DNA of 56,145 nucleotides from a phage. Location of the stretch: sequence record PZ386950.1. One strand, 5' to 3'. Shown here piece by piece: positions 3,764 to 56,082 of the stretch. Position numbers and translations under genes: made by a program. Numbering within the stretch: the first letter of the stretch is position 1; each line of letters opens with the position of its first letter. Below the pieces are notes generated by a model. The model was given only the letters and a program-made list of their open reading frames with translations, was not told the origin of the DNA and did not search any database.

Positions 3764-3803
3764 AGCATAATCGCACGTTTGCAATCCGTCAAGAATTATT
3801 TTA
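3764..3803 (-). promoter_or_regulatory. sigma70-type promoter with UP element (conserved family, copy 1)
   Basis: minus-strand AAAATAATTCTTGACGGATTGCA, 17-bp spacer, TATGCT; identical core recurs 11 times in window. Confidence 0.6.
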
Positions 3804-3874
3804 ACACCGTGCAAAAAAACCATCACTGATATAACATACGTTAAGAACCGTAAACCGTATGGAGCCTGTAGAAC

Positions 3875-5230
3875 ATGGCTGATCAACAATTCGAACAACT
3901 AGCCGTTGCCGGGTACAGTCGAACAGGCAACCAGGTAAACGACGATTTCCTTCCTAAGCTGAACGGTAAACAAGGCCGTCGTATTCTTCGTCAGATGGCT
4001 GAGAACGACGAAACGATCGGTGGTGTACTGTTTGCCATGAGCAGTGTTTATCGTTCTGTACAGTGGATTTTTGACCCGTCTGACAAAGATGATCCAGAAG
4101 CTATCCGTTATTCAGAATGGTTACAGGACGCTATTGAAAATAAAATGGGTGATCCGCGTGGTGCACTCCCGGATGATACCTGGTCCGCGTTCGTTCAGAC
4201 ATGGACAGACGTTGATGTATTCGGCTGGGGTTGGTATGACATTTGGGTGAAAGACCTTGATGATGGCACGGTGGGTATTGCCCGTCTGGTTCCTGTAGCA
4301 CCTGAAACGCTTGCTGGATGGGATATTGAAGAACCGACAGGTTATGTTCGTGGTATTTATCAACGTTCACCTAACCAGGGTACAACGACGTTAATCACGC
4401 GTGACCGTTCGCTTCATTTGATTTCAAGTCCGAATAAAGGTAACCCGGAAGGTTTATCACTGCTGCGCACAGCTTATCGCCCGTGGTACTACAAAAAAGT
4501 GAATATGGAAATCGAATCCATACTTGCCGAACGTGGTACAGGGTTCCCGGTAATTACTGTTAACGCAGATATTAAAAAAGCGGCTAATGATCCTAATGTT
4601 CCTGAACAACAGCGTCAGGCAGCACAGGCGATGATTGATAACTATGAAAACATCGTCGCTAATATCAAACGCAATGAACAATCAGGACTGGTGATTTATT
4701 CTAAACCGTATATCACGGGTTATGATAACGAAACAGGTGTTACCACGTATGGTGGTGAACAACAGGTGAAACTGGAATTCGTTACACCTAACCAGACCAG
4801 TTCTGTGGATATTGACCGGACGATTAAACGTCTGGATACCAGTATTGCCCGTGCGTTACTGGCAGACTTTTTATTTTTTGGCAGTTCGGGTAATACAAGT
4901 AATGGTGCTAACCTGGGTAATCGTACTGAACTGTGGATCCGCGCAATGCAATCACGTATTGATAGTATTGTAGAATGTGTTAATCGTCAGTTGATACCGC
5001 AGTTATGGTCGTTAAACGCATTTCCTGATGAATACCGCCCGTCGATTCGCGCCGGGTCAATCAGTAAAGACAGTATCGAAACGTTGACTACGGCACTTGC
5101 TCGTTTAGCACAAGCTGGTGCGCCTGTATTCCCGGATCCAGACCTTCAGGAATACGTATATAAAGAGGCGGGTCTACCTATTACGGGGATTGATAAAGCC
5201 GGAGACGGATTACCGTCTATTGACGACTGA
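3875..5230 (+). CDS. portal protein
   Basis: 451-aa ORF directly downstream of terminase region; size, acidic C-terminus and position typical of portal proteins. Confidence 0.8.
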   Translation: MADQQFEQLAVAGYSRTGNQVNDDFLPKLNGKQGRRILRQMAENDETIGGVLFAMSSVYRSVQWIFDPSDKDDPEAIRYSEWLQDAIENKMGDPRGALPDDTWSAFVQTWTDVDVFGWGWYDIWVKDLDDGTVGIARLVPVAPETLAGWDIEEPTGYVRGIYQRSPNQGTTTLITRDRSLHLISSPNKGNPEGLSLLRTAYRPWYYKKVNMEIESILAERGTGFPVITVNADIKKAANDPNVPEQQRQAAQAMIDNYENIVANIKRNEQSGLVIYSKPYITGYDNETGVTTYGGEQQVKLEFVTPNQTSSVDIDRTIKRLDTSIARALLADFLFFGSSGNTSNGANLGNRTELWIRAMQSRIDSIVECVNRQLIPQLWSLNAFPDEYRPSIRAGSISKDSIETLTTALARLAQAGAPVFPDPDLQEYVYKEAGLPITGIDKAGDGLPSIDD

Positions 5231-5233
5231 ATG

Positions 5234-5266
5234 AAAAAGGGACCGTTTCTGGTCCCTTAATTTTTA
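5234..5266. terminator. bidirectional rho-independent terminator
   Basis: stem agggacc-gtttct-ggtccct flanked by aaaaa upstream and taattttt downstream, between convergent genes. Confidence 0.7.
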
Positions 5267-5596
5267 CTTAGTTTCAGGCTGCACGATTGACAGTAATTTA
5301 CTCGCTTCATCAACCGCAGTCTGAATACGAGTCTGTAACGGATAACTGTTGTTGATCGCACGTTCCAGCGTTTTATCAAGCAATTGCAGTTTGACTTCAT
5401 CATCGCCAGTGAACGCGTACATATCAGCAACGACTTCTTTAAACTGTGATGCTTGCTCAACAATAGTCGTGGTTACAATGTATTTCCAGACTTTGTTTAG
5501 CAGTTTAAATTTCACTTCGTTATCAGCAACTGCATCAACCAGAATTTCAGCAGCAGTCTTGTCATATTTAACAAGTTCAAGAATTTCAAAACGCAT
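5264..5596 (-). CDS. hypothetical protein
   Basis: 110-aa ORF in minus-strand block. Confidence 0.5.
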   Translation of the reverse strand: MRFEILELVKYDKTAAEILVDAVADNEVKFKLLNKVWKYIVTTTIVEQASQFKEVVADMYAFTGDDEVKLQLLDKTLERAINNSYPLQTRIQTAVDEASKLLSIVQPETK

Positions 5597-5611
5597 TTAA
5601 GTCTTCTCCTG

Positions 5612-5956
5612 TCAGTTAACATACTTCGCGATTAGTTTATCACAGTCCTCGCGACAGGTAGCATACTTAAACAGGTCACTGGCTGCTTCTGCCCGGTAGT
5701 CAGTATCAATGGTGTAATGTTCATTGACATAGTTATAGGCTGCAAGGTAATTGCTGAACATCCCCGTGGTTACCACTTTCGGTAGTTCCCTTACGACCTT
5801 ACCGTTAAACAGATATGCGATTACCAGAATCAGACCACCGATCACAGGACTTGTGAGAAATGCGATAAAGAACCATGCACCAGGATTACGACCCGTTTGT
5901 TTGGCAACACCCGCGACAACCAGACAGAAAAGAATCCATAAAATAGTGAATAACAT
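5612..5956 (-). CDS. membrane protein
   Basis: 114-aa ORF; strong RBS AAGGAGG 7 nt upstream of ATG; two hydrophobic helices in N-terminal half. Confidence 0.6.
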   Translation of the reverse strand: MLFTILWILFCLVVAGVAKQTGRNPGAWFFIAFLTSPVIGGLILVIAYLFNGKVVRELPKVVTTGMFSNYLAAYNYVNEHYTIDTDYRAEAASDLFKYATCREDCDKLIAKYVN

Positions 5957-5986
5957 GATTGTGTCCTCCTTTGTTTTGATGTTTGT

Positions 5987-6027
5987 AGGTTACACGTCCT
6001 TGTGTAATCCGTCAAGAATTATTTTAA
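5987..6027 (-). promoter_or_regulatory. sigma70-type promoter with UP element (copy 2)
   Basis: minus-strand AAAATAATTCTTGACGGATTACA plus 17-bp spacer and TAACCT. Confidence 0.55.
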
Positions 6028-6267
6028 ATTATCGTATACAGGCGGTAAACCCATTGCTGCCTGAACAGACCGTTTTTCGTATTCCTCCCGAAGTTTCTGA
6101 AGCCGTTCAATACCGATGTCACAACCACGCATAATATCAGCGCACAGATCGTTGTAGGTCGCTTCAGATTGCTTGCTGTGTGGGTAATCAACACAGGATG
6201 GATCTGCCATAATGACTTTCGGCAGATACGCGACAGTATCGCCCATTGCGTTTTTAAATATCGTCAT
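6019..6267 (-). CDS. hypothetical protein
   Basis: 82-aa ORF; 3' end overlaps promoter copy 2. Confidence 0.4.
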   Translation of the reverse strand: MTIFKNAMGDTVAYLPKVIMADPSCVDYPHSKQSEATYNDLCADIMRGCDIGIERLQKLREEYEKRSVQAAMGLPPVYDNLK

Positions 6268-6593
6268 AAATACGACCCCACAATTGCTGCACAGTTGACG
6301 ATCGCTAAACGCGTTGCTTTTTCACGGTCTTCTCCGTGGCTAACTGGTTGCTTATAACTAACGCCAGTGTCAGGGTTATTAACCGTCACTTCGTTGTCAC
6401 GAATATCCAGATCCATGTACATGTTAACCATCAGACTGAAAGCATCCTCATTACGTGTAAGAGGGTTCCACAGGCGACCGTTGCCTATATCAATACCTTC
6501 GTTTATGTAACGTTCGTCGTACGCGACGTAATATTTACCATGGATTTCAGCAGCCCGTGCTGCGTTGACTAATAAATCACGATTGTTCATCAT
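6264..6593 (-). CDS. hypothetical protein
   Basis: 109-aa ORF, 4-nt overlaps with both neighbours. Confidence 0.5.
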   Translation of the reverse strand: MMNNRDLLVNAARAAEIHGKYYVAYDERYINEGIDIGNGRLWNPLTRNEDAFSLMVNMYMDLDIRDNEVTVNNPDTGVSYKQPVSHGEDREKATRLAIVNCAAIVGSYL

Positions 6594-6949
6594 ACCCGTC
6601 CTGTTGTACGTTTATATTCTTGAACACAGTAATCAAAGTATTCACCATATGTTTTAACATAATTAATTAGTTCAATTATTACGTCACCGTGGCATGGTTT
6701 AGGGGAACAGAAACAAACTAAATCTTTACCATCTAATGATAAAATATCAGATTTAGTTATGTTTCCTTTCAAACATTCATTCCATAACCATGTTTTATAA
6801 CGAAATAATGTCGCACCTCGTTCTTCATTTTCCGAAAGTTTAAAAGGGTTTGCGAATTTACTTTGTGTTAACCCTTTACCACCGCGACCGATATAAACAG
6901 CACCTTCTGGGATTTGTTTACCAATACGATAGAAGTTTAACACTCTCAT
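6590..6949 (-). CDS. DUF4326-like protein
   Basis: track ORF trimmed to ATG at 6949 (MRVLNFY...); motifs FANPF and CFCSPKPCHGD recalled as DUF4326 hallmarks. Confidence 0.45.
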   Translation of the reverse strand: MRVLNFYRIGKQIPEGAVYIGRGGKGLTQSKFANPFKLSENEERGATLFRYKTWLWNECLKGNITKSDILSLDGKDLVCFCSPKPCHGDVIIELINYVKTYGEYFDYCVQEYKRTTGRV

Positions 6950-6950
6950 G

Positions 6951-7455
6951 TTACATGTTCCCCGTTGATCCAAACCCGCCATTACGCTGACTATCAACAT
7001 CTGGTAATTCTTCCACTTCAACCAGGTTAACAGGTTCGACACGTTCAACCATGAGCTGACAAACACGTTCACCGTCTGCGATAGTCTGTAATTTCTGCCC
7101 GTGGTTAGTCAGCGTAACGTAGTATTCTTCTTTGTAATCACGATCACCGATACCCACACAGTTGATTAGTGACAAACCGTGTTTAAGACTCATGCCGGAA
7201 CGTGGATAGAATTTAATGCAATATCCGCTATCAACTGACATTTTCAGACCAGTGGGGATCATAGCGCGGTCGCCGGGCCATAATGCGATTGTTCCTGCAA
7301 CAACCGGACGTTCCACTTTAGCGCCTGATTCTGTGAATATAGTTACCGATTCTTCCCACAGACAAGCACGAACGTCTAACCCTGCGCTGTCTGGTGTTGC
7401 CCGTGTCGGAAGTTCAGCGTGGGGTGTTAGTTTTTTTGATATACAGGTTAGTCAT
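6951..7455 (-). pseudogene. dut: dUTP diphosphatase interrupted by frameshift in A7 run
   Basis: all five dUTPase motifs present (AGLDVRA, PRSG, GIGDRDY, RVCQLMV, GGFGSTG); motif 1 lies upstream of the track ORF in a frame with no start codon; ATG at 7455 with RBS GAGGAA is in the +1 frame and joins after the A7 run at 7431-7437. Confidence 0.75.
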
Positions 7456-7489: not shown

Positions 7490-7531
7490 ATGTTAGTGTT
7501 ACTGCTTGCAATGTGTCAAGAATTATTTTAA
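7490..7531 (-). promoter_or_regulatory. sigma70-type promoter with UP element (copy 3)
   Basis: minus-strand TAAAATAATTCTTGACACATTGCA then about 17-18 bp and TAACAT-like -10. Confidence 0.55.
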
Positions 7532-7562
7532 ACTTCTGTCAACGTTAACCAATGAGGAACGA

Positions 7563-8588: not shown

Positions 8589-8732
8589 AAAATTATTACG
8601 TGAACTTGAAATAGACTACGAACGAGCGCAAAAAGCGTTACAGTTTCTGGAAGAACAGATCCGCGAAGTTAAGAACCGCATTCAGGGAACTGAAAAACGT
8701 AATCTTCCACGCCCGTAACACGTGATATAATC

Positions 8733-8761
8733 AGCCTCAGTGTGTTAACTGAGGCTTTTTT
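8733..8761 (+). terminator. rho-independent terminator
   Basis: stem agcctcag-tgtgttaa-ctgaggct followed by ttttt immediately before ATG of next gene. Confidence 0.65.
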
Positions 8762-11489: not shown

Positions 11490-11530
11490 AAGATATCCTA
11501 CCGTCTGTAATCCGTCAAGAATTATTTTAA
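11490..11530 (-). promoter_or_regulatory. sigma70-type promoter with UP element (copy 4)
   Basis: minus-strand TTAAAATAATTCTTGACGGATTACA plus 17 bp and TATCTT. Confidence 0.6.
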
Positions 11531-11619
11531 AGATACAGTTAATACAGAACGTGTACTAACTGTACATGGTTTTACATAGGTTTCATGATTTTGAGTTGCA
11601 GCTAATACTGAATCTGTAT

Positions 11620-11760
11620 TAGTAGATCATAGATTCATAGATCGCGTCATGTTTATTTTTGACCAACCCATCTCTATCTTATTCTTTTTATTATCTTTTT
11701 ATAGAAAACATAGAAAACATAGATAAATAGAAGAGTAGTATAAGTAGTAAAAGTTGCTGC
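11620..11760. repeat. AT-rich element copy A (about 90 percent identical to 50985-51125)
   Basis: cgtcatgtttatttttgaccaacccatctctatcttattctttttattatctttttatagaaaacatagaaaacatagata matches second copy nearly base for base. Confidence 0.8.
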
Positions 11761-11816
11761 AAGTAGGAGAGGTTTAAAAGGTATAGAGAGTCGCATACTT
11801 CCCATGAATCTATACG

Positions 11817-11856
11817 TAAAATAATTCTTGACGAATTACACCGACACAACTACTCT
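11817..11856 (+). promoter_or_regulatory. sigma70-type promoter with UP element (copy 5, plus strand)
   Basis: AAAATAATTCTTGACGAATTACA plus 17 bp and TACTCT. Confidence 0.55.
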
Positions 11857-33340: not shown

Positions 33341-33379
33341 TGTTATCGCCTCAATAAGTTTTAAATAATTCTATACGGT

Positions 33380-35236
33380 TTACCGAAGTGGTGCAACGAG
33401 TTTTTCAGCTTCTTTGATGTAAAAATCATAATTGAGTGTTGCCCGGTTAAAACGTTTCATGTCGTTACACTCAGTGGTCAACCAACCTTTACACACTGAC
33501 ATGCGGCGTTCAGGCGCATCAGGGTTCAGTTTCAGTGATTTTGCCAGCGGTGGCATGACTTTTGTTAATGGTGCACCATCTGTGCTGACATAATAACGGG
33601 TAATGTTCTGAACCTGTTTGTCACCCCATAGTAATTTGCTATTACGCGGTACTTTCGTCACCAACATAAAATCGTGAATGTCTTCGTGTGATGTTATAAA
33701 ATCACGAATGTCTTTATTGTGTACCAGTGCTGCTTCAGCCGCTTTTGCAACAACCTGCATACTGTGGTTTTGATGCCAACCCAGATCAACACTGTGGCAA
33801 TAAGCACCTTTACGTTTAACCTTCTTACCACCTTCATAAACAGCGATGTAGTTATTTACATCGCGGATAAACATCACGTCATAAATCGCTTCTTCAAGCT
33901 GGAGTCTGGTTAATTTTTCCCACGCGTGACGAACCTGTTCTACTTGTTCGGTAAACACTCGTGGCACGTAAACCGTAAGACCATCTGTGTTAGCCTGGAT
34001 CATGGACAAACCAGGGATTTTCAGAAGTTCTTCAGCCAACATGCACAAAAGTAACTGTCCATTAATCGTAATAGCCATTGTATAAGCAGGATCGTAGAAC
34101 GGGCTGTATACGTTATTACTGTCGCCATACACACCGTTTAACGCCAGTTTTAACATTGCATTTTCTGGTGTACCTTTCGGGTAACTGGAACGCATGTCAT
34201 AAACATTTTTATAAATGGTGCAAAATTGTTTTCCCAAATGTGCAGGGTAAAGTTCATTACTAATCGCAAGGTTTGGATAAAAACTGGCAACGTCCAGATC
34301 GATGATCACATAATTTTCAGTGGACCTGATAGTTTGAGATTCAATAGACCCGTGGATACCACCCGTACCAAAATCAAACGAGAACCCGTTAATGTCTGCG
34401 CTTAAATCAGTAAACACACCTTTTGTTTCAGTGATGACCTGTTGACGTAACCAGTTAAGAACACGATTAAATTCAGGCTGTTCAAAACGAACATAAGGGA
34501 AAATCACACTGTTCAATGCGATTGATGGTCTGTGCGTCTGCCGTGGTTTTCTGCTACCCGGTTCGAAACATTGAATACCTGATTTTTTAAGTTCCATGAT
34601 GAAATAGTCTTTACCGATTTTCGTGTCGTTATGGTTCATGAAATTACGACCGTATTTAGCAGAAAGTTCACGACGAAAATCGATCAGCTTTTTACTGTGT
34701 TTATAAAACATCAAAGTCGCTTTTAAATCGTGTATCAGATATTGACGAAGCGTATCAATTTGAGAATCGGTTAAATAAGTCCCTGGGGTAAACGGAAGGT
34801 CTTCAATGTTTTCCATTCTCATGTTGAACTCAAGTGTTTTCAGACTTGTTCGTTTTGCCTGGTTGTCGAAATGATGAATTTTATACAAATCAAGTTGGGG
34901 AACTATCCAGTCTTTTTCCCACACCATATGAGCAAAACGATTTTCATCACCAGCGTTAATTATCGAATCACCTTTTTTGTAAATGTCTGCGTTGGTGATA
35001 TACATGATGTTGTTCAAAATAGAATGCTGAACAGGATAGTCGTAACCTAGATTGTTATAACCAACTTCTTCAGCACGATGTTCACGCAAATATTCTGTGA
35101 ACAGGTAAAAAGCCTGACGATCGTCGCGACGATGTGAAATCTCAAAAATATAAGGTGTTTCAGTTAATGCGTGAATAGCACCGAACAGGAAAACATTAGG
35201 ATAATTTTCAATATCGTGAATGTAAGCATCTGACAT
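33380..35236 (-). CDS. family B DNA polymerase (compact, with 3'-5' exonuclease motifs)
   Basis: Exo I HDIEN, Exo II YNNLGYDYP, Exo III YLIHD; polymerase motif A DLDVASFYPN, motif B KLALNGVYG, motif C ANTDG. Confidence 0.75.
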   Translation of the reverse strand: MSDAYIHDIENYPNVFLFGAIHALTETPYIFEISHRRDDRQAFYLFTEYLREHRAEEVGYNNLGYDYPVQHSILNNIMYITNADIYKKGDSIINAGDENRFAHMVWEKDWIVPQLDLYKIHHFDNQAKRTSLKTLEFNMRMENIEDLPFTPGTYLTDSQIDTLRQYLIHDLKATLMFYKHSKKLIDFRRELSAKYGRNFMNHNDTKIGKDYFIMELKKSGIQCFEPGSRKPRQTHRPSIALNSVIFPYVRFEQPEFNRVLNWLRQQVITETKGVFTDLSADINGFSFDFGTGGIHGSIESQTIRSTENYVIIDLDVASFYPNLAISNELYPAHLGKQFCTIYKNVYDMRSSYPKGTPENAMLKLALNGVYGDSNNVYSPFYDPAYTMAITINGQLLLCMLAEELLKIPGLSMIQANTDGLTVYVPRVFTEQVEQVRHAWEKLTRLQLEEAIYDVMFIRDVNNYIAVYEGGKKVKRKGAYCHSVDLGWHQNHSMQVVAKAAEAALVHNKDIRDFITSHEDIHDFMLVTKVPRNSKLLWGDKQVQNITRYYVSTDGAPLTKVMPPLAKSLKLNPDAPERRMSVCKGWLTTECNDMKRFNRATLNYDFYIKEAEKLVAPLR

Positions 35237-38263: not shown

Positions 38264-38305
38264 ACTTTAAAAGGTGTTGTGTAATCTGTCAAGAATTATT
38301 TTACA
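38264..38305 (-). promoter_or_regulatory. sigma70-type promoter with UP element (copy 6)
   Basis: minus-strand TAAAATAATTCTTGACAGATTACA plus 17 bp and TAAAGT. Confidence 0.6.
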
Positions 38306-38326
38306 CGCGCCTTTCGTTGATGCAGA

Positions 38327-38367
38327 TGTTAGAGGAATAAGTTGCAATGCGTCAAGAACTATTTTAA
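38327..38367 (-). promoter_or_regulatory. sigma70-type promoter with UP element (copy 7, tandem)
   Basis: minus-strand AAAATAGTTCTTGACGCATTGCA, about 60 bp upstream of copy 6. Confidence 0.5.
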
Positions 38368-38401
38368 ACTTTTTTCACGATTCGATATTACAGGGTAGAA
38401 A

Positions 38402-40063: not shown

Positions 40064-40104
40064 TGGTAATCTGCATAGAAATATTTTAAACGTAAGGAAC
40101 TGTA

Positions 40105-43226: not shown

Positions 43227-43245
43227 TCATTGCACAAGGATGTGT

Positions 43246-43285
43246 AAAATAATTCTTGACGAATTACAGACGTGTGCGCTATAGT
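43246..43285 (+). promoter_or_regulatory. sigma70-type promoter with UP element (copy 8)
   Basis: AAAATAATTCTTGACGAATTACA plus 18 bp and TATAGT. Confidence 0.65.
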
Positions 43286-43529: not shown

Positions 43530-43531
43530 TA

Positions 43532-45473: not shown

Positions 45474-45828
45474 TGCGTATCATATTACTAAAGTGGAAAA
45501 CCGTGAAAGTATCCTGATGAAAGGTATCGTACCAGGGATAAAACTGATCACCAATAATTTAGATGGTCGTCAGGGATTAGGTGTTCCCATCCGTTCCTGT
45601 AGTTATGATAATTTATACGGTTTCCACCCCGTGTTCATTACCTTTAATCCTGTTGAGGCTATATCAATAATGAGTTATCGTGGTTCTGCTGATGAATGGT
45701 GTGTTGCTGTTATAAACGCTACTAATTTACAACATAAACCCGGTCGTTTTTCGTGGGAGTCAATCACTGATTATGTACCTGCTGATTGTATAAAACGTTT
45801 CGAACCCCTGACCAACTTCTTAAAATAA
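45466..45828 (+). CDS. hypothetical protein
   Basis: 120-aa ORF; stop overlaps promoter copy 9. Confidence 0.45.
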   Translation: MVDAYHITKVENRESILMKGIVPGIKLITNNLDGRQGLGVPIRSCSYDNLYGFHPVFITFNPVEAISIMSYRGSADEWCVAVINATNLQHKPGRFSWESITDYVPADCIKRFEPLTNFLK

Positions 45829-45860
45829 TTCTTGACAGATTACCAAACCTCCCCGATAAT
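45822..45860 (+). promoter_or_regulatory. sigma70-type promoter with UP element (copy 9)
   Basis: AAAATAATTCTTGACAGATTACC plus 17 bp and GATAAT. Confidence 0.65.
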
Positions 45861-47003: not shown

Positions 47004-47017
47004 GAAGGAGACTAGTT

Positions 47018-47632: not shown

Positions 47633-47853
47633 CTATCAGACTGATGAATCCAACCGTTGCCCGTGATATTAAACCGGGTGACAAGATTGAAGTATTTAAC
47701 GAATGGTACTGGGTGCGCTATATCAATTACCACGGGTCACAGATTACGCTTCGTTTACAACCGGAAGATGAACCGCTATCACCATTTTGTGAAAACGACC
47801 GTGTTGTGGTGACAGTACCAGAAGATCTAATGATTGATGTCGAGGTGCGTTAA
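47629..47853 (+). CDS. hypothetical protein
   Basis: ATGA overlap chain. Confidence 0.45.
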   Translation: MTIRLMNPTVARDIKPGDKIEVFNEWYWVRYINYHGSQITLRLQPEDEPLSPFCENDRVVVTVPEDLMIDVEVR

Positions 47854-48105
47854 ATGACTGTGTACGAAATGGAATATTTTCTTCGTGGTAAATGTGTTCC
47901 GGGTGATTTGAAAGTTAACGAAACAAACGCTGAATATCTGGTGCGTAAATTAACACTTGTGGATCAACAACTGGAAGCACTGGATAAACTAGCAGGTCAA
48001 TTTCTACAATTATCAATGGAACGTGGCGGTCGTGTTTCAACCGCGTATGCTGAGTGTGCTGATTTGTTGGCTAGAACTGTTCGCGACATAAGGAAAAACA
48101 CATGA
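47854..48105 (+). CDS. hypothetical protein
   Basis: TAAATG junction. Confidence 0.45.
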   Translation: MTVYEMEYFLRGKCVPGDLKVNETNAEYLVRKLTLVDQQLEALDKLAGQFLQLSMERGGRVSTAYAECADLLARTVRDIRKNT

Positions 48106-48308
48106 ATACTAACGATTATTTATATCTTGTATTAGTTCCAATTGCTGAGGTATTCAGATCACGTTTTCCGAAGGGTTCTGCGCCTTTTAGTGCTATTCGT
48201 AACAATAAAACCTGTCGCGTTAAATTTACAAGCAAACGGCTTGAAAAAGAATGGCAGGAATTTTGTAAAAATAACGAATTGAAAAATGATCCAAAACTGG
48301 AATACTAA
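48102..48308 (+). CDS. hypothetical protein
   Basis: RBS AAGGAAA. Confidence 0.45.
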   Translation: MNTNDYLYLVLVPIAEVFRSRFPKGSAPFSAIRNNKTCRVKFTSKRLEKEWQEFCKNNELKNDPKLEY

Positions 48309-48537
48309 CAGGTTCCCTCGTAACGGTTTGAAGTGGTCCGCACGAGATCTGGTGTTATTAAAAATTAATGCGGGGAAGATCAGTGCGGGCGAAATAGCGT
48401 ATTACCTTCGCCGGGACGTTGAAGCGTCACGTCTCGGTATATCACTGGTAACCAATAAATGTAAACGTGGTCATGCGCGAGTTTACCAAAAAGGTAGATG
48501 GCGCTGTCCTGAGTGTAGAAAATTAAAAGGGTATTAA
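48286..48537 (+). CDS. hypothetical protein with C-terminal zinc ribbon
   Basis: CKRGH ... CPECRK; start uncertain. Confidence 0.4.
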   Translation: MIQNWNTNRFPRNGLKWSARDLVLLKINAGKISAGEIAYYLRRDVEASRLGISLVTNKCKRGHARVYQKGRWRCPECRKLKGY

Positions 48538-48539
48538 AT

Positions 48540-48773
48540 ATGAAAATTAAAAATATGGCTGCAAGTGGTCTGTCAGGCCGTATCTTTTACGGTACGATGG
48601 AAACAAAAGACGGTGGTCAGTCTGGTAAATGGTTAGCAGGAAAGCAAGACGTTACTGATATGGCGATCCGCGCCGTTGCTGAACATTGTCATCTGACAGG
48701 AAACGAATATTCATTTACTATTAACGACGGTCGTGTGATTACACTGACAGTAACAGAGGTACAACCATCATGA
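48540..48773 (+). CDS. hypothetical protein
   Basis: 77-aa ORF. Confidence 0.45.
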   Translation: MKIKNMAASGLSGRIFYGTMETKDGGQSGKWLAGKQDVTDMAIRAVAEHCHLTGNEYSFTINDGRVITLTVTEVQPS

Positions 48774-49339
48774 CACCTGAACAATTTGCAAAAGCAGCAC
48801 ACGGTGATCAACTGCGTAAATATACCAACGACCCATATGTTAACCACTGCCGGAACGTTGCTGAACTGGTTAAACGCTATGGTGGTACGCCGGATATGGT
48901 TACTGCTGCCTGGCTGCATGACGTCGTTGAAGATACGCCCGTGACCGTGGGTGATGTGTGTTCGCAGTTCGGTGAGACTGTGGCACGTTATGTTGATCAG
49001 CTTACTGATGTGAGTCGTCCACACCACGGCAACCGTGTTAAGCGTAAAGCACGGGACATCGACCATTTATCACGGGCTGAACCTGTGGTGAAAACTATAA
49101 AACTGTGTGATCTGCTGGATAACACCTCTTCAATTGTCCGACACGATCCGAAGTTTGCTGTAACTTACCTGGCTGAAAAACAACTCATGCTTGCTCATCT
49201 GTCAGACGCAAGCAACCAGGAGTTATACGCGCTTGTTGAGCGTGAATTGTTTAAAGCCAAATACAAACTAACGAACGTCCAGTTGACCGCGTTTGACAAG
49301 CACTACGACGCACTGGTTAAAGCGATGGGGAATCTGTGA
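48770..49339 (+). CDS. HD-domain phosphohydrolase, SpoT/Mesh1-like (putative (p)ppGpp hydrolase)
   Basis: HGDQLRKYTNDPYVNH ... AAWLHDVVEDT matches the RelA/SpoT hydrolase-domain signature. Confidence 0.65.
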   Translation: MTPEQFAKAAHGDQLRKYTNDPYVNHCRNVAELVKRYGGTPDMVTAAWLHDVVEDTPVTVGDVCSQFGETVARYVDQLTDVSRPHHGNRVKRKARDIDHLSRAEPVVKTIKLCDLLDNTSSIVRHDPKFAVTYLAEKQLMLAHLSDASNQELYALVERELFKAKYKLTNVQLTAFDKHYDALVKAMGNL

Positions 49340-49341
49340 TT

Positions 49342-49512
49342 ATGAAAGAAATAGAACAACTGGTTGAACGTTTACGTGCTGCTGGTCATCAACTTACTGT
49401 TGAAAATAACTGGATAGTGGTTAACCCACCATGTTCTTTATCTGATACGCTTTTAATTCAGAAATTGAATAAAGGTGAAAAACTGGCTAAGTATATTAAG
49501 GAAAATCCGTAA
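49342..49512 (+). CDS. hypothetical small protein (56 aa)
   Basis: ATG 49342, TAATG overlap downstream; not in track. Confidence 0.3.
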   Translation: MKEIEQLVERLRAAGHQLTVENNWIVVNPPCSLSDTLLIQKLNKGEKLAKYIKENP

Positions 49513-49652
49513 TGAAACTAAAAATTCCCGGTTACTGGTTCGCCGTAAGCTGGAACAGTTACAGTAAGTGGGGTTATTTCAAACTGTGGCATGACGGGCC
49601 GTACCGCGCGTTCTGGATCGGTCGTCTTTGTTTCGAATGGTGGTGGCGATGA
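49512..49652 (+). CDS. hypothetical small Trp-rich protein (46 aa)
   Basis: coupled by overlaps on both sides; not in track. Confidence 0.3.
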   Translation: MKLKIPGYWFAVSWNSYSKWGYFKLWHDGPYRAFWIGRLCFEWWWR

Positions 49653-49936
49653 CCATAAGACGTGTTGTGTGTGCGGCAAATAAATATGAGCTTAACGACG
49701 GTTCAACTAAAATTTTCACGGGTATTCGTCACTATTGTCCCGTTATGCGTCAGAATATGGAATTCTGGAAATTATCCATCAAACGTTCTACAGAAATACA
49801 AGGCTTTGTAGATCAGTATGGTGTTTTTATGGACCGTTTTGAAGCACTTCAGGTTGCAAAAGATGCCGGGCAACTGAATATTGCCAGACCAAAAACATCA
49901 CCTGAAGATCGGTTGTTTAGCGAGGACTTATACTAA
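49649..49936 (+). CDS. hypothetical protein
   Basis: trimmed to ATG 49649 in ATGA overlap. Confidence 0.45.
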   Translation: MTIRRVVCAANKYELNDGSTKIFTGIRHYCPVMRQNMEFWKLSIKRSTEIQGFVDQYGVFMDRFEALQVAKDAGQLNIARPKTSPEDRLFSEDLY

Positions 49937-49966: not shown

Positions 49967-50764
49967 TTATTGACCCATCATATCTTTATACATCATCAAA
50001 ACAATATCATCCGGCATATTGTCTACATCACAATGTGGGTTGTGTGATAACGCATACAGTCTGATTTTCTCCTTCAAATCGCTGACATCGACTACAGGTG
50101 CTTCCACTCGTGTTACAGGTGCTTCCACTCGTGTTACAGGTGGAAGCACTCGTGTTACAGGTGGTTCCACTCGTGCTACAGGTGCTTCCACTCGTGCTAC
50201 AGGTGCTTCACAAACCATCACATTAAACGGTGTACCGGTGCCTTCGTATTTTTCAAGCAAATCGACCATTACGTTTACACATTCCGGGATCCATCCCCGG
50301 CGCAAACCATTCTGAATCCAACTGTCAGTAATTGTGTGTTCGTTTAAATTCCTGCGTAGCACATATCTTGCACATTCAAAATTACCGCACATCGCCTCAA
50401 ACCGTGTCCACACGTCGTGACCGTGAACAGCTTCCAGGATCTGTGAATCAACGTATCTGACACGTTGCCAGTAGTTATTAGCAAAACGCCTGTGTGGTAA
50501 TTTCTGACGCAGTTCGGTAACCGGTATTGTGTGTTTAAGAACAATGTTTTCGTCAGAATGTTGTACTGACGAAGGTGACAGTGTGAAGTCAGTAATCTCT
50601 TCAAGAATAATACTGATCGTTTCATATTTAGGATGAAACCTACCGCTTAACCATTGGTTGTAACGACCAATGGTTACCTTAACACCTCGACGATTAAGGT
50701 ATTCAACAGCATTTTGTACCCCGCCTTTTAAATCTATCAATTCGTCTAAAAGGTTCTTTTTCAT
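49967..50764 (-). CDS. hypothetical protein with EAPVARV tandem repeats
   Basis: ATG 50764 with perfect RBS AAGGAGG; divergent from terS across the iteron region. Confidence 0.55.
   Translation of the reverse strand: MKKNLLDELIDLKGGVQNAVEYLNRRGVKVTIGRYNQWLSGRFHPKYETISIILEEITDFTLSPSSVQHSDENIVLKHTIPVTELRQKLPHRRFANNYWQRVRYVDSQILEAVHGHDVWTRFEAMCGNFECARYVLRRNLNEHTITDSWIQNGLRRGWIPECVNVMVDLLEKYEGTGTPFNVMVCEAPVARVEAPVARVEPPVTRVLPPVTRVEAPVTRVEAPVVDVSDLKEKIRLYALSHNPHCDVDNMPDDIVLMMYKDMMGQ
50092..50212 (-). repeat. 21-bp coding tandem repeat (about 6 copies)
   Basis: acaggtgcttccactcgtgtt repeated with point variants. Confidence 0.85.
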
Positions 50765-50809
50765 TATCACCCCTCCTTATTTGACCACGGATAAATCATA
50801 ACGCGCGTT

Positions 50810-50980
50810 AGCAGCTAGTGCAAGACGTGCTTTATATGTTAGTGTATTTACACTTAGTGCATGTTGTGCTTTAGCAGTTAGTGCAAGATGCACGTTGTGT
50901 ATTAGCTGTTAGTGCACGTTGTGTATCTATGTTGGTACAGCTAATGCACGTTGTGAATTATATAGTGCATGTTGTGCATT
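50810..50980. repeat. iteron array TTAGTGCAYGTTGTG (about 6 copies)
   Basis: ctagtgcaagacgtgc, ttagtgcatgttgtgc, ttagtgcaagatgcacgttgtg, ttagtgcacgttgtg, ctaatgcacgttgtg, tagtgcatgttgtgc. Confidence 0.8.
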
Positions 50981-50984
50981 AAAG

Positions 50985-51125
50985 TTATACTTAACATAGA
51001 TTTCGTCATGTTTACTTTTTAACCAACCCCTCTCTATCTTATTCTTTTTATTATCTTTTTATAGATAACATAGAAAACATAGATATAAATAAGAAGTAGT
51101 ATAGAAAAATAGAGATAGTGCATAT
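50985..51125. repeat. AT-rich element copy B
   Basis: near-identical to 11620-11760; followed by further iteron copies at 51117-51310. Confidence 0.8.
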
Positions 51126-51374
51126 AGTGTATTAGCTGTAAATAGAGCTAAAATAAAAGTCTGGGAGATACCTATTGTAATCTATGTTTTTATGCAAGTC
51201 TTTGAAATTATTGTGATTATTGGATACGTATTTATGTATGTGATCGAAAATTAGTGCATGTTGTGCACTAACTGTAAACTTAATACTAACGTTGTATTAG
51301 CTGTAAAACAGGGCGTGTGGACAACCCGTGGGTATCTGTGGGAAACTAATTTAAAATTTATGGGAGACAAATTT

Positions 51375-52010
51375 ATGAAAATTTCAGACCGGGCTAAAAG
51401 GGCTGCTCTGGAGTTAACAACCGATCAACTCCGTTTCGCTAACCTGTGGTTAGATCGTGTCAATAACGGCTTCAGCAACGCTCAGTGCGTCTTACACGCT
51501 TATCCGGGACATAAAGACCCTGACGCAGCTAAAGTCACCGCACATCGCCTCCTGTCGAATACGAAGGTGTTGAACTATCTGGACGCGATGGGAAGTCATG
51601 CGCTTGAGTCTGTCGGGGAATCGTTAACGAGTCGTGTCGAGTGGTGGAAACGAGCGGCAAGTACGGCTGAAGAATTACTGGAACCGTATTGTCAACGTGT
51701 CATCGTTCCTGGCGAAGACGACACAGAAGCGAAACACCTGTGGGTGAACAGTACCGGCGATATCCCCAGCCATCTGCAACAGTACGTAGTTTGCTACAAA
51801 CGTTACATGCTGGGTGGATACATTCTGGTGACACGTGAACTGTTCGATCCGAAAACTCGTGCAAAAGCGTCTGAACAACTGGATAAGATCACCGGGAACA
51901 GTATCGACCGTGTGGAATTGTCTGGCGTGGTTGGTAACGTGGTTCAGAGTGTTCCTGAAGGTGCAACTATCGACGACATCGCGCAATTGTATCAGAAGGC
52001 GCTTAAATAA
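51375..52010 (+). CDS. terS: terminase small subunit
   Basis: trimmed to ATG 51375 (RBS GGGAGA); N-terminal HTH-like region FANLWLDRVNNGFSNAQCVLHAY resembles small-terminase DNA-binding domains. Confidence 0.65.
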   Translation: MKISDRAKRAALELTTDQLRFANLWLDRVNNGFSNAQCVLHAYPGHKDPDAAKVTAHRLLSNTKVLNYLDAMGSHALESVGESLTSRVEWWKRAASTAEELLEPYCQRVIVPGEDDTEAKHLWVNSTGDIPSHLQQYVVCYKRYMLGGYILVTRELFDPKTRAKASEQLDKITGNSIDRVELSGVVGNVVQSVPEGATIDDIAQLYQKALK

Positions 52011-54403: not shown

Positions 54404-54408
54404 ACTGA

Positions 54409-54450
54409 AGTCTATCTGATAATGTGTAAACCGTCAAGAATTATTTTAAA
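54409..54450 (-). promoter_or_regulatory. sigma70-type promoter with UP element (copy 10)
   Basis: minus-strand TTAAAATAATTCTTGACGGTTTACA. Confidence 0.5.
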
Positions 54451-54627
54451 CTGTCCGTCACTGTCTGCAGCGTAACAAATACCGTGACTGTAGATTGTCG
54501 CAGTTCGTGTAATGCGTTGATAGTCTGAGCATTGGTTACGAACACGAAGGTCATACCCGGACTGTATGATCAGCCAGGTTGCAATAATAGCGAGTAATTT
54601 TAAAACGTATCTGAACATGTTCCGCAC
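54412..54627 (-). CDS. hypothetical small protein
   Basis: 71-aa ORF with hydrophobic N-terminus. Confidence 0.35.
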   Translation of the reverse strand: MRNMFRYVLKLLAIIATWLIIQSGYDLRVRNQCSDYQRITRTATIYSHGICYAADSDGQFKIILDGLHIIR

Positions 54628-54689
54628 TCCTGTTTGATAGTTTCAGGGTAGTGCGGAACTGGTAAGAATGGTATGGGTTTTACAATAAT

Positions 54690-55085
54690 TTAACAGGGGT
54701 TTCGGCTGGCGTAAAACTTTGTACCTACTGGCATACGTTCCATGCCGAGTTTTCCACGCAAGTATTTGTATGTTTCACCGGGAGAACGTAGTTCTGCTTC
54801 ACACGGTCTTTCAACAATTTCACCCACGGGATCACCTAACGCGCCTTTCCACCCTTCCCACATTGCACTCATAGTGATAAACCAGACACTACCTAAACTG
54901 GCTTTCTTGTTCTCCCAAAACCAATCGATGAACTCTATCGACATTCCGTGCTGTTTTGCAATTTCGTAACGGTCATCCACTTTTTCAACCCTCCACCCAT
55001 ATTTGGCACGATTCATAGCGGTCCGTTCATCATTCGTGGTGAACAGTACGCGCCCGGATTTATGACAAATGTTCCAAGTCGTCAT
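54690..55085 (-). CDS. hypothetical protein
   Basis: 131-aa ORF. Confidence 0.5.
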   Translation of the reverse strand: MTTWNICHKSGRVLFTTNDERTAMNRAKYGWRVEKVDDRYEIAKQHGMSIEFIDWFWENKKASLGSVWFITMSAMWEGWKGALGDPVGEIVERPCEAELRSPGETYKYLRGKLGMERMPVGTKFYASRNPC

Positions 55086-55299
55086 TTCGCTAATACACCA
55101 ATAATGAAAATTAGCATATAGAATAAAACATTACGGGTCATAATTCATAAACCTTAAAACTACCGCCTGAATAGCGATGTTTATTACACAAATTACAACG
55201 GTGTTCCTGATTTGCGTAGTTACGTTCATCACCGTGTATAGTACGATATAAACACCATTCGTGTTTGCAGAATAATCGTTTGATAAATATCTTCATAGT

Positions 55300-55494
55300 T
55301 CAATAACCCCTCCTCGACTGGTAATCAATTTTCTTCAGTGATTGTTGCACGATCTGCCAGGATGACAACATGAATAATTGCGCGTATTGTCCCAGTGCTA
55401 AATTTCGTGGTTTATCCTGGTAAGCGTAAATGGTCGCAATGTCATCACCATTTAAACGGATCCGCCACGGTGTCAGAGTTGGTTTATCACCCAT
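55300..55494 (-). CDS. hypothetical small protein
   Basis: trimmed to ATG 55494. Confidence 0.4.
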   Translation of the reverse strand: MGDKPTLTPWRIRLNGDDIATIYAYQDKPRNLALGQYAQLFMLSSWQIVQQSLKKIDYQSRRGY

Positions 55495-55816
55495 GTTCGA
55501 CGCGCTCCAGTAGTTCACGAATGTTTTGCAACACCTGTTGTTTTGTCTGAGTAGTGACACATACACCATCAGTACGCCCAAAAGTTTCTAACACAGTTTG
55601 AAGTGCTTGATATATTTCAGGACTATTTAACATTAATGACAGGTTACCCCGGAGTTCCTGGAGTTTTTCTTGTTCTTCGTTTGGTAAATAACAAGGGTCT
55701 TCCATTTTAATAACCACTTGCGCGATTGCCCCGTGGTCTGGTGATGAAATACTCACATGATTTTCAACCCATCCTTCATCTTTAAACCACGGTAATTGTG
55801 AACATTTCATACTCAT
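55487..55816 (-). CDS. hypothetical protein, first gene after promoter copy 11
   Basis: 109-aa ORF. Confidence 0.5.
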   Translation of the reverse strand: MSMKCSQLPWFKDEGWVENHVSISSPDHGAIAQVVIKMEDPCYLPNEEQEKLQELRGNLSLMLNSPEIYQALQTVLETFGRTDGVCVTTQTKQQVLQNIRELLERVEHG

Positions 55817-56040
55817 GACCCTCTTGTTTTTTGTTTAGTGAAAAGATATCTCTTCAACCCGTCGCAACTAATTTCACAATCCCCGCAGGAACCACCATCC
55901 AACCAGATGATGCATAGTGTGTGATTTCGTGGGGTGAGTTACGCTTTATACTCACCGTAGCGCCTGACAATCAGCGGTATCTTCAGCCGGACAATTCCGG
56001 GTTACTACATACTTGGTCAGGTATCTTTTCTATGGCAATA

Positions 56041-56082
56041 ACTATACAGATACATGAGTAATCTGTCAAGAATTATTTTAAA
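56041..56082 (-). promoter_or_regulatory. sigma70-type promoter with UP element (copy 11)
   Basis: minus-strand TTAAAATAATTCTTGACAGATTACT plus 17 bp and TATAGT. Confidence 0.65.

What the first reader, a model, noticed from the sequence alone, without database searches (positions are those of the whole stretch)
3764..56082. Eleven copies of one conserved promoter motif
AAAATAATTCTTGAC(A/G)(G/C)ATTRCA occurs at about 3787, 6010, 7514, 11513, 11828, 38287, 38350, 43256, 45832, 54432 and 56064. Each has an A/T-rich UP-like element, a -35 TTGACR, a 17-18 bp spacer and a plausible -10, and each points into a block of early or replication genes. None precedes the structural operons. The conserved GATTAC stretch after the -35 suggests selection beyond sigma70 contacts.
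Basis: seen in the sequence. Interest (0 to 1): 0.6.

Follow-up and report, generated by a model that had tools for sequence, protein, structure and literature searches.

The report
Shared early promoter box of 9NA-like phages
The window is a complete 9NA-like (Sashavirus/Nonanavirus) phage genome that carries eleven near-identical copies of a 26-base promoter box, which most likely lets the host RNA polymerase switch on the early and replication genes; this is an ordinary kind of phage feature, but seven conserved bases lie outside the contacts expected for the host sigma factor.

Summary
There are 11 matches with at most 1 mismatch and none in shuffles. The conserved unit is 26 bp, ttTAAAATAATTCTTGACRSATTRCA (about -48 to -23). 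Each copy has a TAnnnT -10 hexamer 17-18 bp after the -35. Nine of 11 have a 22-28 nt leader to a ribosome-binding site and start codon.

The window is a whole 9NA-like siphophage genome opened at the large terminase (TerL) start. Every E. coli, Salmonella and Klebsiella relative carries 9-13 copies. Proteus relatives (capsid protein 61% identical) carry 6-8 copies that differ only at -39 to -37, so ATTRCA is under selection. The box is absent from a Vibrio relative and from bacterial genomes.

Best reading: a clade-specific class of strong sigma-70 early promoters with a proximal UP element, plus an extra conserved element whose partner is unknown.

Copy 11818(+) runs without a terminator into the head operon.

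Most other late genes instead have conserved extended -10 elements (TGnTATAAT type) with no -35. Two or three conserved partial copies lack TTGAC. No regulator was identified.

This is a new member of a known kind, of moderate interest.

The parts
3764..3805 (-). Promoter box copy 1 (GTTAAAATAATTCTTGACGGATTGCA) with -10 TATGCT, spacer 17. It heads the leftward small-gene block 3732 to 1905 and is divergent from the portal gene.
5987..6028 (-). Copy 2 (consensus box) with -10 TAACCT, spacer 17, and a 24-nt leader to the ATG at 5956. It heads block 5956 to 5264.
7490..7532 (-). Copy 3 (TTGACACATTGCA) with -10 TAACAT, spacer 18. It heads the dUTPase block 7455 to 6019.
11490..11531 (-). Copy 4 (consensus box) with -10 TATCTT, spacer 17. 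It heads block 11461 to 9718, which includes RusA-like and recombination directionality factor (RDF)-like genes.
11815..11856 (+). Copy 5 (TTGACGAATTACA) with -10 TACTCT, spacer 17. It heads gene 11887-12255 and, with no terminator, the head operon (protease 12252, major capsid 14335-15354).
38264..38305 (-). Copy 6 with -10 TAAAGT, spacer 17, and a 26-nt leader to the ATG at 38231. It is the proximal promoter of the leftward replication operon (38231 to about 31393, including exonuclease, SSB-like protein and DNA polymerase).
38326..38368 (-). Copy 7 (AAAATAGTTCTTGACGCATTGCA) with -10 TAACAT, spacer 18. It is a tandem distal promoter 63 bp upstream of copy 6 and is divergent from the helicase gene at 38402.
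43243..43285 (+). Copy 8 with -10 TATAGT, spacer 18. It lies directly after the primase gene and heads small genes 43317-45828, including a Dcm-type methylase.
45819..45860 (+). Copy 9 (GATTACC variant) with -10 GATAAT, spacer 17. It heads the ParB-HTH gene 45895-46662 and small genes up to 49936. The palindrome AGCCTCA-N11-TGAGGCT (45862-45886) covers the expected start site.
54409..54450 (-). Copy 10 (GGTTTACA variant) with -10 TAGACT, spacer 17. It heads block 54376 to 52109, including an RdgC-like exonuclease.
56041..56082 (-). Copy 11 (GATTACT variant) with -10 TATAGT, spacer 17, and a long leader of about 220 nt. It heads block 55810 to 54412 and is divergent from TerL (ATG at window position 1; the genome is circular).
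33359..33384 (+). Conserved partial copy without TTGAC (TTTTAAATAATTCTATACGGTTTACC). It lies between the DNA polymerase gene and the next gene and is antisense to both. It is 26/26 identical in PDP46, 9NA and Carvaje, although the flanks are about 78% identical. Read in the sense direction it is GGTAAACCGTATAGAA, 28 nt before an ATG.
40065..40090 (-). Conserved partial copy without TTGAC (TTTAAAATATTTCTATGCAGATTACC; in 9NA and Carvaje TTTAAAATAATTCTAAACAGATTACC, 29.5 bits). It lies between the helicase gene and gene 40105. Read in the sense direction it is aTGGTAATCTGCATAGAA, an extended -10-like element 24 nt before the ATG.
56107..56122 (+). Related element GGTAAACTGTATAGAA, 24 nt before the TerL ATG. 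It is 15/17 identical to the sense reading of the partial copy at 33359-33384, lacks the A-tract, and is preceded by TG (TGGTAAACT, extended -10-like). It is conserved in 9NA and Carvaje.

Best explanation
The eleven sites are one class of strong promoters read by the host sigma-70 RNA polymerase. They are specific to the 9NA-like and Proteus Gorganvirus phage lineage and drive the early, nucleotide-metabolism and replication gene blocks of this virulent phage, which has no polymerase of its own.

Proposed mechanism. AAAATAAT (-45 to -38) acts as a proximal UP subsite for the alpha C-terminal domain. TCTTGACR is a near-consensus extended -35 for sigma region 4. A modest TAnnnT -10 follows after 17-18 bp. 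Transcription starts about 7 nt later, and a compact 22-28 nt A-rich leader brings a strong ribosome-binding site.

The promoters are scattered in both orientations, because blocks of small early genes are interleaved with the rightward late genes (small terminase TerS, TerL, portal, head morphogenesis, head and tail). Most late units instead carry conserved extended -10 elements without a -35. The two classes could therefore be separated in time by anything that disables -35 or UP recognition.

The seven bases after the -35 (S-ATT-R-CA, -29 to -23) are under purifying selection. They are most likely a recognition element for something other than sigma region 4; the partner is not identified.

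Shown: sequence anatomy, copy number, statistics, orientation towards genes, conservation across lineages and absence elsewhere. Inferred: that they fire, that they fire early, which protein parts touch which bases, and any role of ATTRCA.
For: - Copies and statistics: 11 copies against 0 expected. The block is 26 bp with sharp edges.
- Promoter anatomy: a -10 hexamer at 17-18 bp in all 11 copies, and a 22-28 nt leader to a ribosome-binding site and ATG in 9 of 11.
- Orientation: every copy is intergenic or at a gene end and faces the next gene block.
- Gene content: the downstream genes are small unknowns, dUTPase, a RusA-like resolvase, an RdgC-like exonuclease, Dcm, a phosphohydrolase, ParB-HTH, exonuclease, SSB and polymerase.
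- No phage RNA polymerase is annotated in four relatives.
- Distribution: 9-13 copies in each of about 20 9NA-like genomes from three host genera. There are 6-8 copies of TTTAAAATATAGCTTGACAGATTACA in four Proteus phages. There are none in a Vibrio relative (0 of 50 CTTGAC sites). In 185,579 bacterial species genomes there were only 3 single hits, in unrelated MAGs, none in a host genus.
- A full copy also sits upstream of an unrelated gene in Klebsiella temperate phages, which suggests that the box can function with host factors alone.
- The GenBank record of AVIO78A annotates at least one orthologous site simply as a sigma-70 promoter.
- Late units carry TGATATAAT, TGTTATAAT, TGATATAAC or TGGTAAACT without a -35, conserved in relatives.
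Against: - I found no transcript or start-site data for any member of this group, so activity and timing are inferred.
- The generic promoter scan does not find more sigma-70-like sites than shuffles give, so hexamer matches alone prove little.
- The -10 hexamers are only 3-5 of 6.
- One copy feeds the head operon, which blurs the early/late split.
- The helicase-primase operon has no box in its own orientation.
- Sigma-70 and alpha contacts, as I know them, do not explain conservation at -29 to -23.
- They also do not explain the conserved partial copies that lack TTGAC.
Confidence: 0.8

Rival explanations
1. The box is a promoter fused to an operator. An unidentified DNA-binding protein, phage-encoded or host, recognises the flanks (the A-tract and ATTRCA) and switches all early promoters off or on together. 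The partial copies without TTGAC are pure binding sites for it. This extends the best explanation rather than replacing it.
For: - ATTRCA is conserved across lineages whose other intergenic DNA cannot be aligned, and the same positions are degenerate in both lineages.
- All copies in the Proteus lineage changed together at -39 to -37. This is what co-evolution with a phage factor would give, whereas (from general knowledge, not checked here) host alpha and sigma are nearly identical in these hosts.
- The partial copies keep both flanks but not TTGAC and are more conserved than their surroundings: 26/26 identical against flanks of about 78%.
- A palindrome over the start site of copy 9, next to a ParB-HTH gene, shows that additional promoter-proximal control exists in this genome.
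Against: - No regulator was found. PHROGs and Pfam scans of about 60 ORFs gave only one HTH protein (ParB-like), which tblastn did not detect in the Proteus phage.
- The box has no dyad symmetry that survives in the Proteus version (read from the sequences).
- A full copy works, or at least persists, in Klebsiella prophages that share no genes with 9NA-like phages.
- Read in the sense direction, two of the three partial elements look like extended -10 elements 24 nt before an ATG; the third, 33359-33384, does not. So some may be promoters of another kind.
- A concerted change can also arise from gene conversion among copies.
Confidence: 0.3
2. The extended identity is mostly history, not function. 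The box is a mobile promoter cassette that spreads with small genes (moron or PeSL-like) and is kept uniform by recombination among copies. It serves as a homology patch for module shuffling.
For: - The genes behind the boxes are the most variable part of the genome; many have no counterpart in 9NA or Carvaje.
- Whole cassettes come and go. A leftward box plus small gene lies between the tail tube and chaperone genes in PDP46, 9NA and Carvaje but is absent here. Copy 11818(+) and its gene are absent from 9NA and Carvaje.
- Ends of homology blocks lie within 40 bp of a box 4-5 times more often than random positions do.
- A single copy occurs in unrelated temperate phages.
- T4-type PeSLs are a documented precedent (PMC2839356).
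Against: - Twenty-three of 26 positions are identical between lineages whose capsid proteins are only 61% identical. Neutral drift of a homogenised family would not give that.
- Conservation stops sharply at -49 and -22, whereas duplicated segments would carry flanks.
- The junction enrichment is no larger than expected if junctions simply fall at gene boundaries (11 boxes among about 95 boundaries; my estimate).
- Against the closest relative the enrichment is weak: 2 of 26 ends, P about 0.09.
- No stem-loop partner lies next to the boxes in the window.
Confidence: 0.15
3. The sites are not promoters at all. They are signals for another process such as replication initiation, packaging or DNA modification.
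For: - Two partial copies sit beside the polymerase and helicase genes.
- The phage encodes several DNA-modifying enzymes.
Against: - Orientation always matches the downstream genes.
- There is a fixed 17-18 bp distance to a TAnnnT hexamer and a fixed short leader to a ribosome-binding site.
- Other repeat arrays upstream of TerS are better candidates for packaging or origin signals.
Confidence: 0.03

Closest known systems
Early promoters of T4-type phages and their PeSL cassettes (promoter-early stem-loops; Arbiol et al. 2010, PMC2839356; Comeau et al. 2014, PMC4122927)
   Same: - Many near-identical strong sigma-70-like promoters with an A/T-rich tract upstream of the -35.
- Placement in front of small, variable genes of unknown function that are interspersed among conserved core genes.
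- Gain and loss of cassettes between relatives.
   Different: - No stem-loop or terminator partner lies next to the boxes in this window.
- Recombination at the boxes is not demonstrated.
- The host phage is a 56-kb siphophage, not a T4-like myophage.
- The conserved part here includes 7 bases downstream of the -35, which are not part of the PeSL description.
Sigma-70 promoters with a proximal UP element (consensus AAAAAARNR at -46 to -38, and the extended -35 tcTTGACat; from my knowledge of Estrem et al. 1999 and the Hawley-McClure and Harley-Reynolds compilations, not checked here)
   Same: TAAAATAAT at -46 to -38, TC before TTGAC, a 17-18 bp spacer and a TAnnnT -10.
   Different: These models do not predict conservation of S-ATT-R-CA at -29 to -23. 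The distal UP subsite is not conserved here.
T4 temporal switch (AsiA/MotA sigma appropriation; ADP-ribosylation of alpha by Alt/ModA), which silences -35- and UP-dependent early promoters while extended -10 promoters stay active (from my own knowledge)
   Same: Two promoter architectures share one genome. The early class is strongly dependent on the -35 and UP element. Late units have conserved TGnTAnAAT-type elements and no -35.
   Different: - No AsiA-, MotA- or Alt/Mod-like protein was detected.
- The boxes keep a canonical -35 rather than a MotA box at -30.
- The timing of either class has not been measured.
Morons of lambdoid phages (a gene with its own promoter and terminator inserted among late genes)
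   Same: Self-contained promoter-gene units are inserted between virion genes, often in the opposite orientation. A copy of the box also drives an unrelated small gene next to the tail fibre gene of Klebsiella temperate phages.
   Different: Moron promoters are not a single shared sequence. Here one box is reused 11 times and also drives the essential replication operon.

Membership tests
Sigma-70 (housekeeping) promoter with UP element | A -35 hexamer close to TTGACA | tested here: met
   TTGACA or TTGACG in 11 of 11 copies
Sigma-70 (housekeeping) promoter with UP element | A -10 hexamer TAnnnT placed 16-18 bp after the -35 | tested here: met
   10 of 11 are TAnnnT and one is GATAAT, all at 17 or 18 bp (for those the scan lists)
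Sigma-70 (housekeeping) promoter with UP element | An A/T-rich tract at -46 to -38 (proximal UP subsite) | tested here: met
   TAAAATAAT is invariant or nearly so. Binding by the alpha C-terminal domain was not tested.
Sigma-70 (housekeeping) promoter with UP element | Transcription by host holoenzyme that starts 6-8 nt after the -10 | not testable with these tools
   No transcript data were found.
PeSL-type mobile regulatory cassette | A conserved strong early promoter repeated in variable regions | tested here: met
PeSL-type mobile regulatory cassette | A stable stem-loop or terminator as part of the same motif | tested here: not met
   No terminator-like hairpin lies within about 60 bp of any box in the window. 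One relative (AVIO78A) has a predicted terminator that abuts one copy.
PeSL-type mobile regulatory cassette | Recombination junctions located in the motif | tested here: inconclusive
   Junctions are enriched 4-5 fold against random positions for 9NA and Carvaje (P about 0.003-0.004). The enrichment is weak for PDP46 and is not above a gene-boundary expectation.
Phage-polymerase promoter (T7-like, N4-like) | The phage encodes its own RNA polymerase | tested here: not met
   None is annotated in 9NA, PDP46, Carvaje or Isfahan. All window ORFs over 600 aa match the tape measure, tail tip, tailspike, primase or DNA polymerase.
T4 middle promoter (MotA-dependent) | A MotA box centred at -30 that replaces the -35 | tested here: not met
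   A canonical TTGAC -35 is present. ATTRCA does not resemble TGCTT (the consensus is from memory).
Repressor operator of the lambdoid type overlapping a promoter | Dyad symmetry of the conserved block | tested here: not met
   The partial dyad AATTCTT-G-ACGRATT (5-6 of 7 pairs) is lost in the Proteus version ATAGCTTGACAGATT, while the block stays conserved (sequences).

The most novel reading that the evidence does not exclude
The box is a composite of a host promoter and a 7-base recognition site (S-ATT-R-CA, possibly together with the A-tract) for a dedicated, still unknown phage factor that co-evolves with it. The factor would silence or re-programme all early promoters at once. Late genes would then run from -35-independent extended -10 promoters. 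This would be a T4-like sigma or alpha takeover logic invented independently in a small siphophage. The conserved copies that lack TTGAC would be further sites for the same factor.
Probability: 0.25. Interest if true: 0.6.

Novelty: new member of a known kind. Interest (0 to 1): 0.35.

Why it matters
The biology of 9NA-like phages is little studied, although they are used in Salmonella, E. coli and Klebsiella biocontrol work. A single 26-bp box that marks every early transcription unit gives three things.

- A ready map of their transcription programme.
- A compact promoter that is probably strong and may be usable in several enterobacterial hosts.
- A clean test case for what constrains promoter DNA between -29 and -23, where sigma-70 is not known to read bases.

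If the extra element binds a phage factor, that factor would be a new global regulator of host RNA polymerase use.

Tried and rejected
1. Mimicry of a host promoter. The box (21-base core) was scanned against one genome from each of 185,579 bacterial species. It gave 3 isolated hits in unrelated MAGs and none in Enterobacteriaceae. Rejected.

2. Dyad-symmetric operator. AATTCTT-G-ACGRATT is a partial palindrome in this clade only and is lost in the Proteus version. Rejected as the reason for conservation.

3. Reverse complement of the box as a divergent promoter (-35 TTGCAA, 17 bp, -10 TAAACT).
   - It works on paper for 7507 and 38343 (upstream of gene 7506 and of the helicase gene) but not for 3780, 11506 or 56057.
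   - Positions -49 and -50 are barely conserved, so it is not a general explanation.
   - G at -25 does seem commoner at divergent sites (11 of 17 against 1 of 13 in three genomes, not independent). This is left unexplained.

4. PeSL-like stem-loops next to the boxes. None are present in the window.

5. Recombination hot spots. The enrichment disappears against a gene-boundary null.

6. Known RNA families. No Rfam hit at gathering thresholds.

7. Search for a regulator.
   - Pfam or PHROGs on about 60 ORFs and PDB sequence searches on three conserved unknowns gave nothing except a ParB-HTH protein.
   - I ran no further search on this, because there was no single good candidate.

8. A common late-promoter motif as long as the early box. 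None was found. Late units share only short extended -10-like elements.

9. Literature. The comparative paper on this group (Zeng et al. 2019, J Virol 93:e00848-19, PMC6819911) is not in the held library, so I could not check whether it already describes the box. The 9NA announcement (PMC4153490), the AVIO78A paper (PMC10612097), the BASEL paper (PMC11990801) and the PDP46 paper (PMC12137930) do not.

Full report
**What the window is.** A 10-kb segment of the window matches E. coli phages PDP46, PJ16, AVIO78A and KarinMuster (Bas82) and Salmonella phages Sasha, Sergei and Solent at 96-97% identity. It matches Salmonella phage 9NA and Klebsiella phages such as Carvaje at about 78%. The window starts at the ATG of the large terminase (TerL) gene. 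Its last 300 bases continue into the sequence that precedes TerL in 9NA. It is therefore a complete, circularly assembled 9NA-like siphophage genome (Sashavirus/Nonanavirus).

The group is known for small genes interspersed among its virion assembly genes (PMC4153490). In this genome those are blocks of small leftward genes lying between the rightward late genes.

**The observation.** Shuffled sequence gives none.

- Aligning the sites in the direction of the motif shows a conserved unit of 26 bases, ttTAAAATAATTCTTGACRSATTRCA. Conservation stops abruptly on both sides.
- With TTGACR taken as -35 to -30, the unit spans -48 to -23.
- All eleven copies have a TAnnnT-type hexamer 17 or 18 bases after the -35. 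None has a TG extension.
- Nine of the eleven have a 22-28 nt, A-rich leader that ends in a ribosome-binding site and a start codon.
- A weight matrix built from the sites scores them at 38.8-44.2 bits. The next best site in the genome scores 22.3.
- The two flanks of the -35 always occur together. Of 29 CTTGAC in the window, 11 carry the downstream block and all 11 also carry the A-tract; the other 18 carry neither (a strict A-tract pattern scored 10 of the 11, and the copy it missed is AAAATAGTTC at 38343).

**Where the copies point.**

- Eight copies are on the minus strand. They head the leftward blocks: 3732-1905, 5956-5264, about 7455-6019, 11461-9718, 54376-52109, 55810-54412 and, as a tandem pair 63 bp apart, the replication operon 38231 to about 31393.
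- Two plus-strand copies follow the primase gene. They head the long run of small rightward genes 43317-49936.
- Family searches on about 60 of these ORFs give mostly families of unknown function. Named hits are dUTPase, a RusA-like resolvase, an RdgC-like exonuclease, a Dcm-type methylase, a phosphohydrolase, a ParB-HTH protein, exonuclease, an SSB-like protein and DNA polymerase.
- This is the content expected of early and middle genes, but the timing itself is an inference.

Its first gene (to 12255) overlaps the start of the XkdF-type protease gene at 12252. The scaffold and major capsid genes follow, and no terminator-like site lies between them. 9NA and Carvaje lack both that gene and that copy. 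It therefore looks like a cassette inserted in the same orientation as the head operon.

**Comparison with relatives.**

- A 30-base probe finds 9-13 copies in every complete 9NA-like genome from E. coli, Salmonella and Klebsiella. Elsewhere among 50,697 phage records it finds essentially nothing.
- Copies at corresponding places in 9NA, Carvaje and PDP46 keep the box, while the spacer and flanks drift.
- The Proteus phage Isfahan is the informative outgroup. It has 61% capsid identity and 36% GC, and its intergenic DNA cannot be aligned to the window.
- Its copies read TTTAAAATATAGCTTGACAGATTACA. They are identical to the box except at -39 to -37.
- Three further Proteus phages have 6-8 copies of that version.
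- The positions that vary within a genome (-30 A/G, -29 G/C/A, -25 A/G) are the same in both lineages.
- A Vibrio relative with 51% capsid identity has no such motif.
- A scan of one genome for each of 185,579 bacterial species finds three isolated hits in unrelated MAGs and none in the hosts.

So the block after the -35, S-ATT-R-CA, is under purifying selection, and it is specific to this phage lineage.

**What I think it is.** The A-tract fits the proximal UP subsite, and TCTTGAC fits the extended -35 consensus (both from my own knowledge of E. coli promoters). The spacing, the -10 hexamers and the leaders complete the picture of strong promoters for unmodified host RNA polymerase.

- No phage RNA polymerase is annotated in any relative.
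- A full copy of the box sits upstream of an unrelated 85-residue gene, beside the tail fibre gene, in Klebsiella temperate phage ST512-KPC3phi13.3 and in about ten prophage-like IMG/VR contigs. This suggests that the box can function, or at least persist, without any 9NA-like gene.
- GenBank annotators of AVIO78A marked at least one orthologous site simply as a sigma-70 promoter, with no mention of a shared box.

I put 0.8 on 'sigma-70 early promoter class'.

**What precedes the late genes instead.**

- The three perfect TGnTATAAT sequences of the genome all lie 30-70 nt upstream of a late gene and in the right orientation: 8723 before the head-morphogenesis gene, 29759 before the holin gene and 29852(-) before the tailspike gene.
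- TGATATAAC precedes the portal gene, and TGGTAAACT precedes TerL.
- None has a recognisable -35, and all are conserved in PDP46, 9NA and Carvaje.
- Their number is no more than chance gives. It is their placement and conservation that argue for function.

One class depends on the -35 and UP element. The other class does not depend on the -35. This is the arrangement that T4 exploits with AsiA and with ADP-ribosylation of alpha. I found no such protein here, so this remains a model.

**The unexplained part.** Known sigma-70 and alpha contacts do not account for -29 to -23. Three conserved relatives of the box also lack TTGAC:

- 33359-33384, after the polymerase gene. It is 26/26 identical in four phages whose flanks are about 78% identical.
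- 40065-40090, after the helicase gene. The 9NA and Carvaje version scores 29.5 bits.
- GGTAAACTGTATAGAA, before TerL.

The first two are antisense to their operons if read as boxes. Read in the sense direction, all three lie 24-28 nt before a start codon, and two of them form a TGGTAAnCT extended -10.

They may be binding sites for a factor that also reads the flanks of the box. Alternatively, they may be internal promoters of the late type that happen to resemble the reverse complement of the box. I cannot decide between these readings.

- The operator reading (0.3) is helped by the concerted change at -39 to -37 in the Proteus lineage.
- It is weakened by the lack of a candidate regulator, by the lack of a dyad that survives between lineages, and by the prophage copies.

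**The cassette reading.** This is the view that the identity is maintained by spread and recombination, as for T4-type PeSLs (PMC2839356). It explains the gain and loss of promoter-gene units between relatives. It also explains the 4-5 fold excess of homology-block ends near boxes relative to random positions.

That excess is about what gene boundaries alone would give. No stem-loop accompanies the boxes here. Neutral history also cannot explain 23 of 26 identical positions across the deep split. I give it 0.15 as the main cause of the extended conservation. It may still contribute to mosaicism.

**Verdict.** The promoter interpretation is well supported by anatomy and comparison, but it has not been tested experimentally.

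The feature is a new member of a familiar kind, a lineage-specific consensus early promoter. Its one unusual trait is a deeply conserved heptamer just downstream of the -35. I could not read the main comparative paper on these phages (Zeng et al. 2019), so prior description cannot be excluded.

Noticed in passing
window 8723-8731(+), 29759-29767(+), 29844-29852(-), 3827-3835(+), 56106-56114(+): Extended -10-like elements without a -35 (TGATATAAT, TGATATAAT, TGTTATAAT, TGATATAAC, TGGTAAACT) lie 30-70 nt upstream of the head-morphogenesis, holin, tailspike, portal and TerL genes. They are conserved in PDP46, 9NA and Carvaje and are candidate late promoters. The holin and tailspike elements each lie inside the other gene's coding region.
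   Followed up: partly
window 8733-8756 and 45862-45886: The palindrome AGCCTCA-N10/11-TGAGGCT occurs exactly twice (0.01 expected). One copy lies right after the late-type -10 at 8723 and is followed by a T run, like a terminator. The other lies over the predicted start site of box promoter 45822, in front of the ParB-HTH gene. Both are conserved in relatives. It may be an operator for the ParB-like protein.
   Followed up: partly
window 50805-51139 (upstream of TerS, 51258-52010): An array of at least 5-8 imperfect direct repeats TAGTGCAyGTTGTGyaTTAGCTGT, spaced 24-39 bp apart, fills the 487-bp gap before the small terminase gene. It is a candidate pac or terminase-binding site, or origin iterons.
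   Followed up: no
window 11701-11745 and 51070-51105; also 11552-11564: ATAGAAAAC repeats followed by ATAGATAAATAGAAGAGTAGTATAAG lie between divergent box copies 4 and 5. They resemble a stretch upstream of TerS. GTGTACTAACTGTA resembles the TerS-upstream repeat unit. These are shared regulatory or packaging elements of unknown role.
   Followed up: no
window about 7437-7443 (minus-strand gene downstream of box 7507): The dUTPase gene has a run of seven A where PDP46 and 9NA have six. This splits the reading frame: a 13-codon ORF, then 6951-7316. It is either a sequencing error or a real frameshift. An extra gene of about 380 bp (6593-6952, phrog_464 / NrdA-like hit) is inserted after it relative to PDP46 and 9NA.
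   Followed up: partly
window 35461-35700; 50093-50209; 12063-12137: In-frame tandem repeats lie inside coding regions: 30 bp x 8 in the SSB-like gene (Gly/Ala/Thr-rich linker), 21 bp x 5.6 in gene 49967-50770, and 21 bp x 3.6 in the gene behind box copy 5. 9NA and Isfahan have their own repeat versions.
   Followed up: no
L068 2501-2526 (Klebsiella phage ST512-KPC3phi13.3, MK422448 52570-52595) and IMG/VR loci L013, L014, L016, L035, L038, L039, L041, L042, L033, L062: Single full copies of the box (TTAAAATAATTCTTGACGGATTGCA) occur in Klebsiella temperate phages or prophage-like contigs. They lie between two small genes next to the tail fibre gene. The genes have no homologue in 9NA-like genomes. 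This suggests transfer of the promoter alone, or use of it as a moron promoter.
   Followed up: partly
window 19384-19488 compared with PDP46 25224-25566, 9NA about 24200-24450 and Carvaje 23734-24030: Relatives carry a leftward box plus one small gene between the tail tube and tail chaperone genes. The window has only a 105-bp gap there. This is an example of presence or absence of a whole promoter-gene cassette.
   Followed up: partly
whole window: The hexamer TATAAT occurs 24 times on both strands against about 57 in mononucleotide shuffles. The depletion is similar in Carvaje (27) and less clear in 9NA (51). It may reflect avoidance of stray -10 elements.
   Followed up: partly
box position -25 in window, 9NA and Carvaje: G rather than A at -25 (ATTGCA) is found at 11 of 17 copies that face a divergent rightward gene, and at 1 of 13 other copies. 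The counts are not independent, because many sites are orthologous. No explanation was found.
   Followed up: partly
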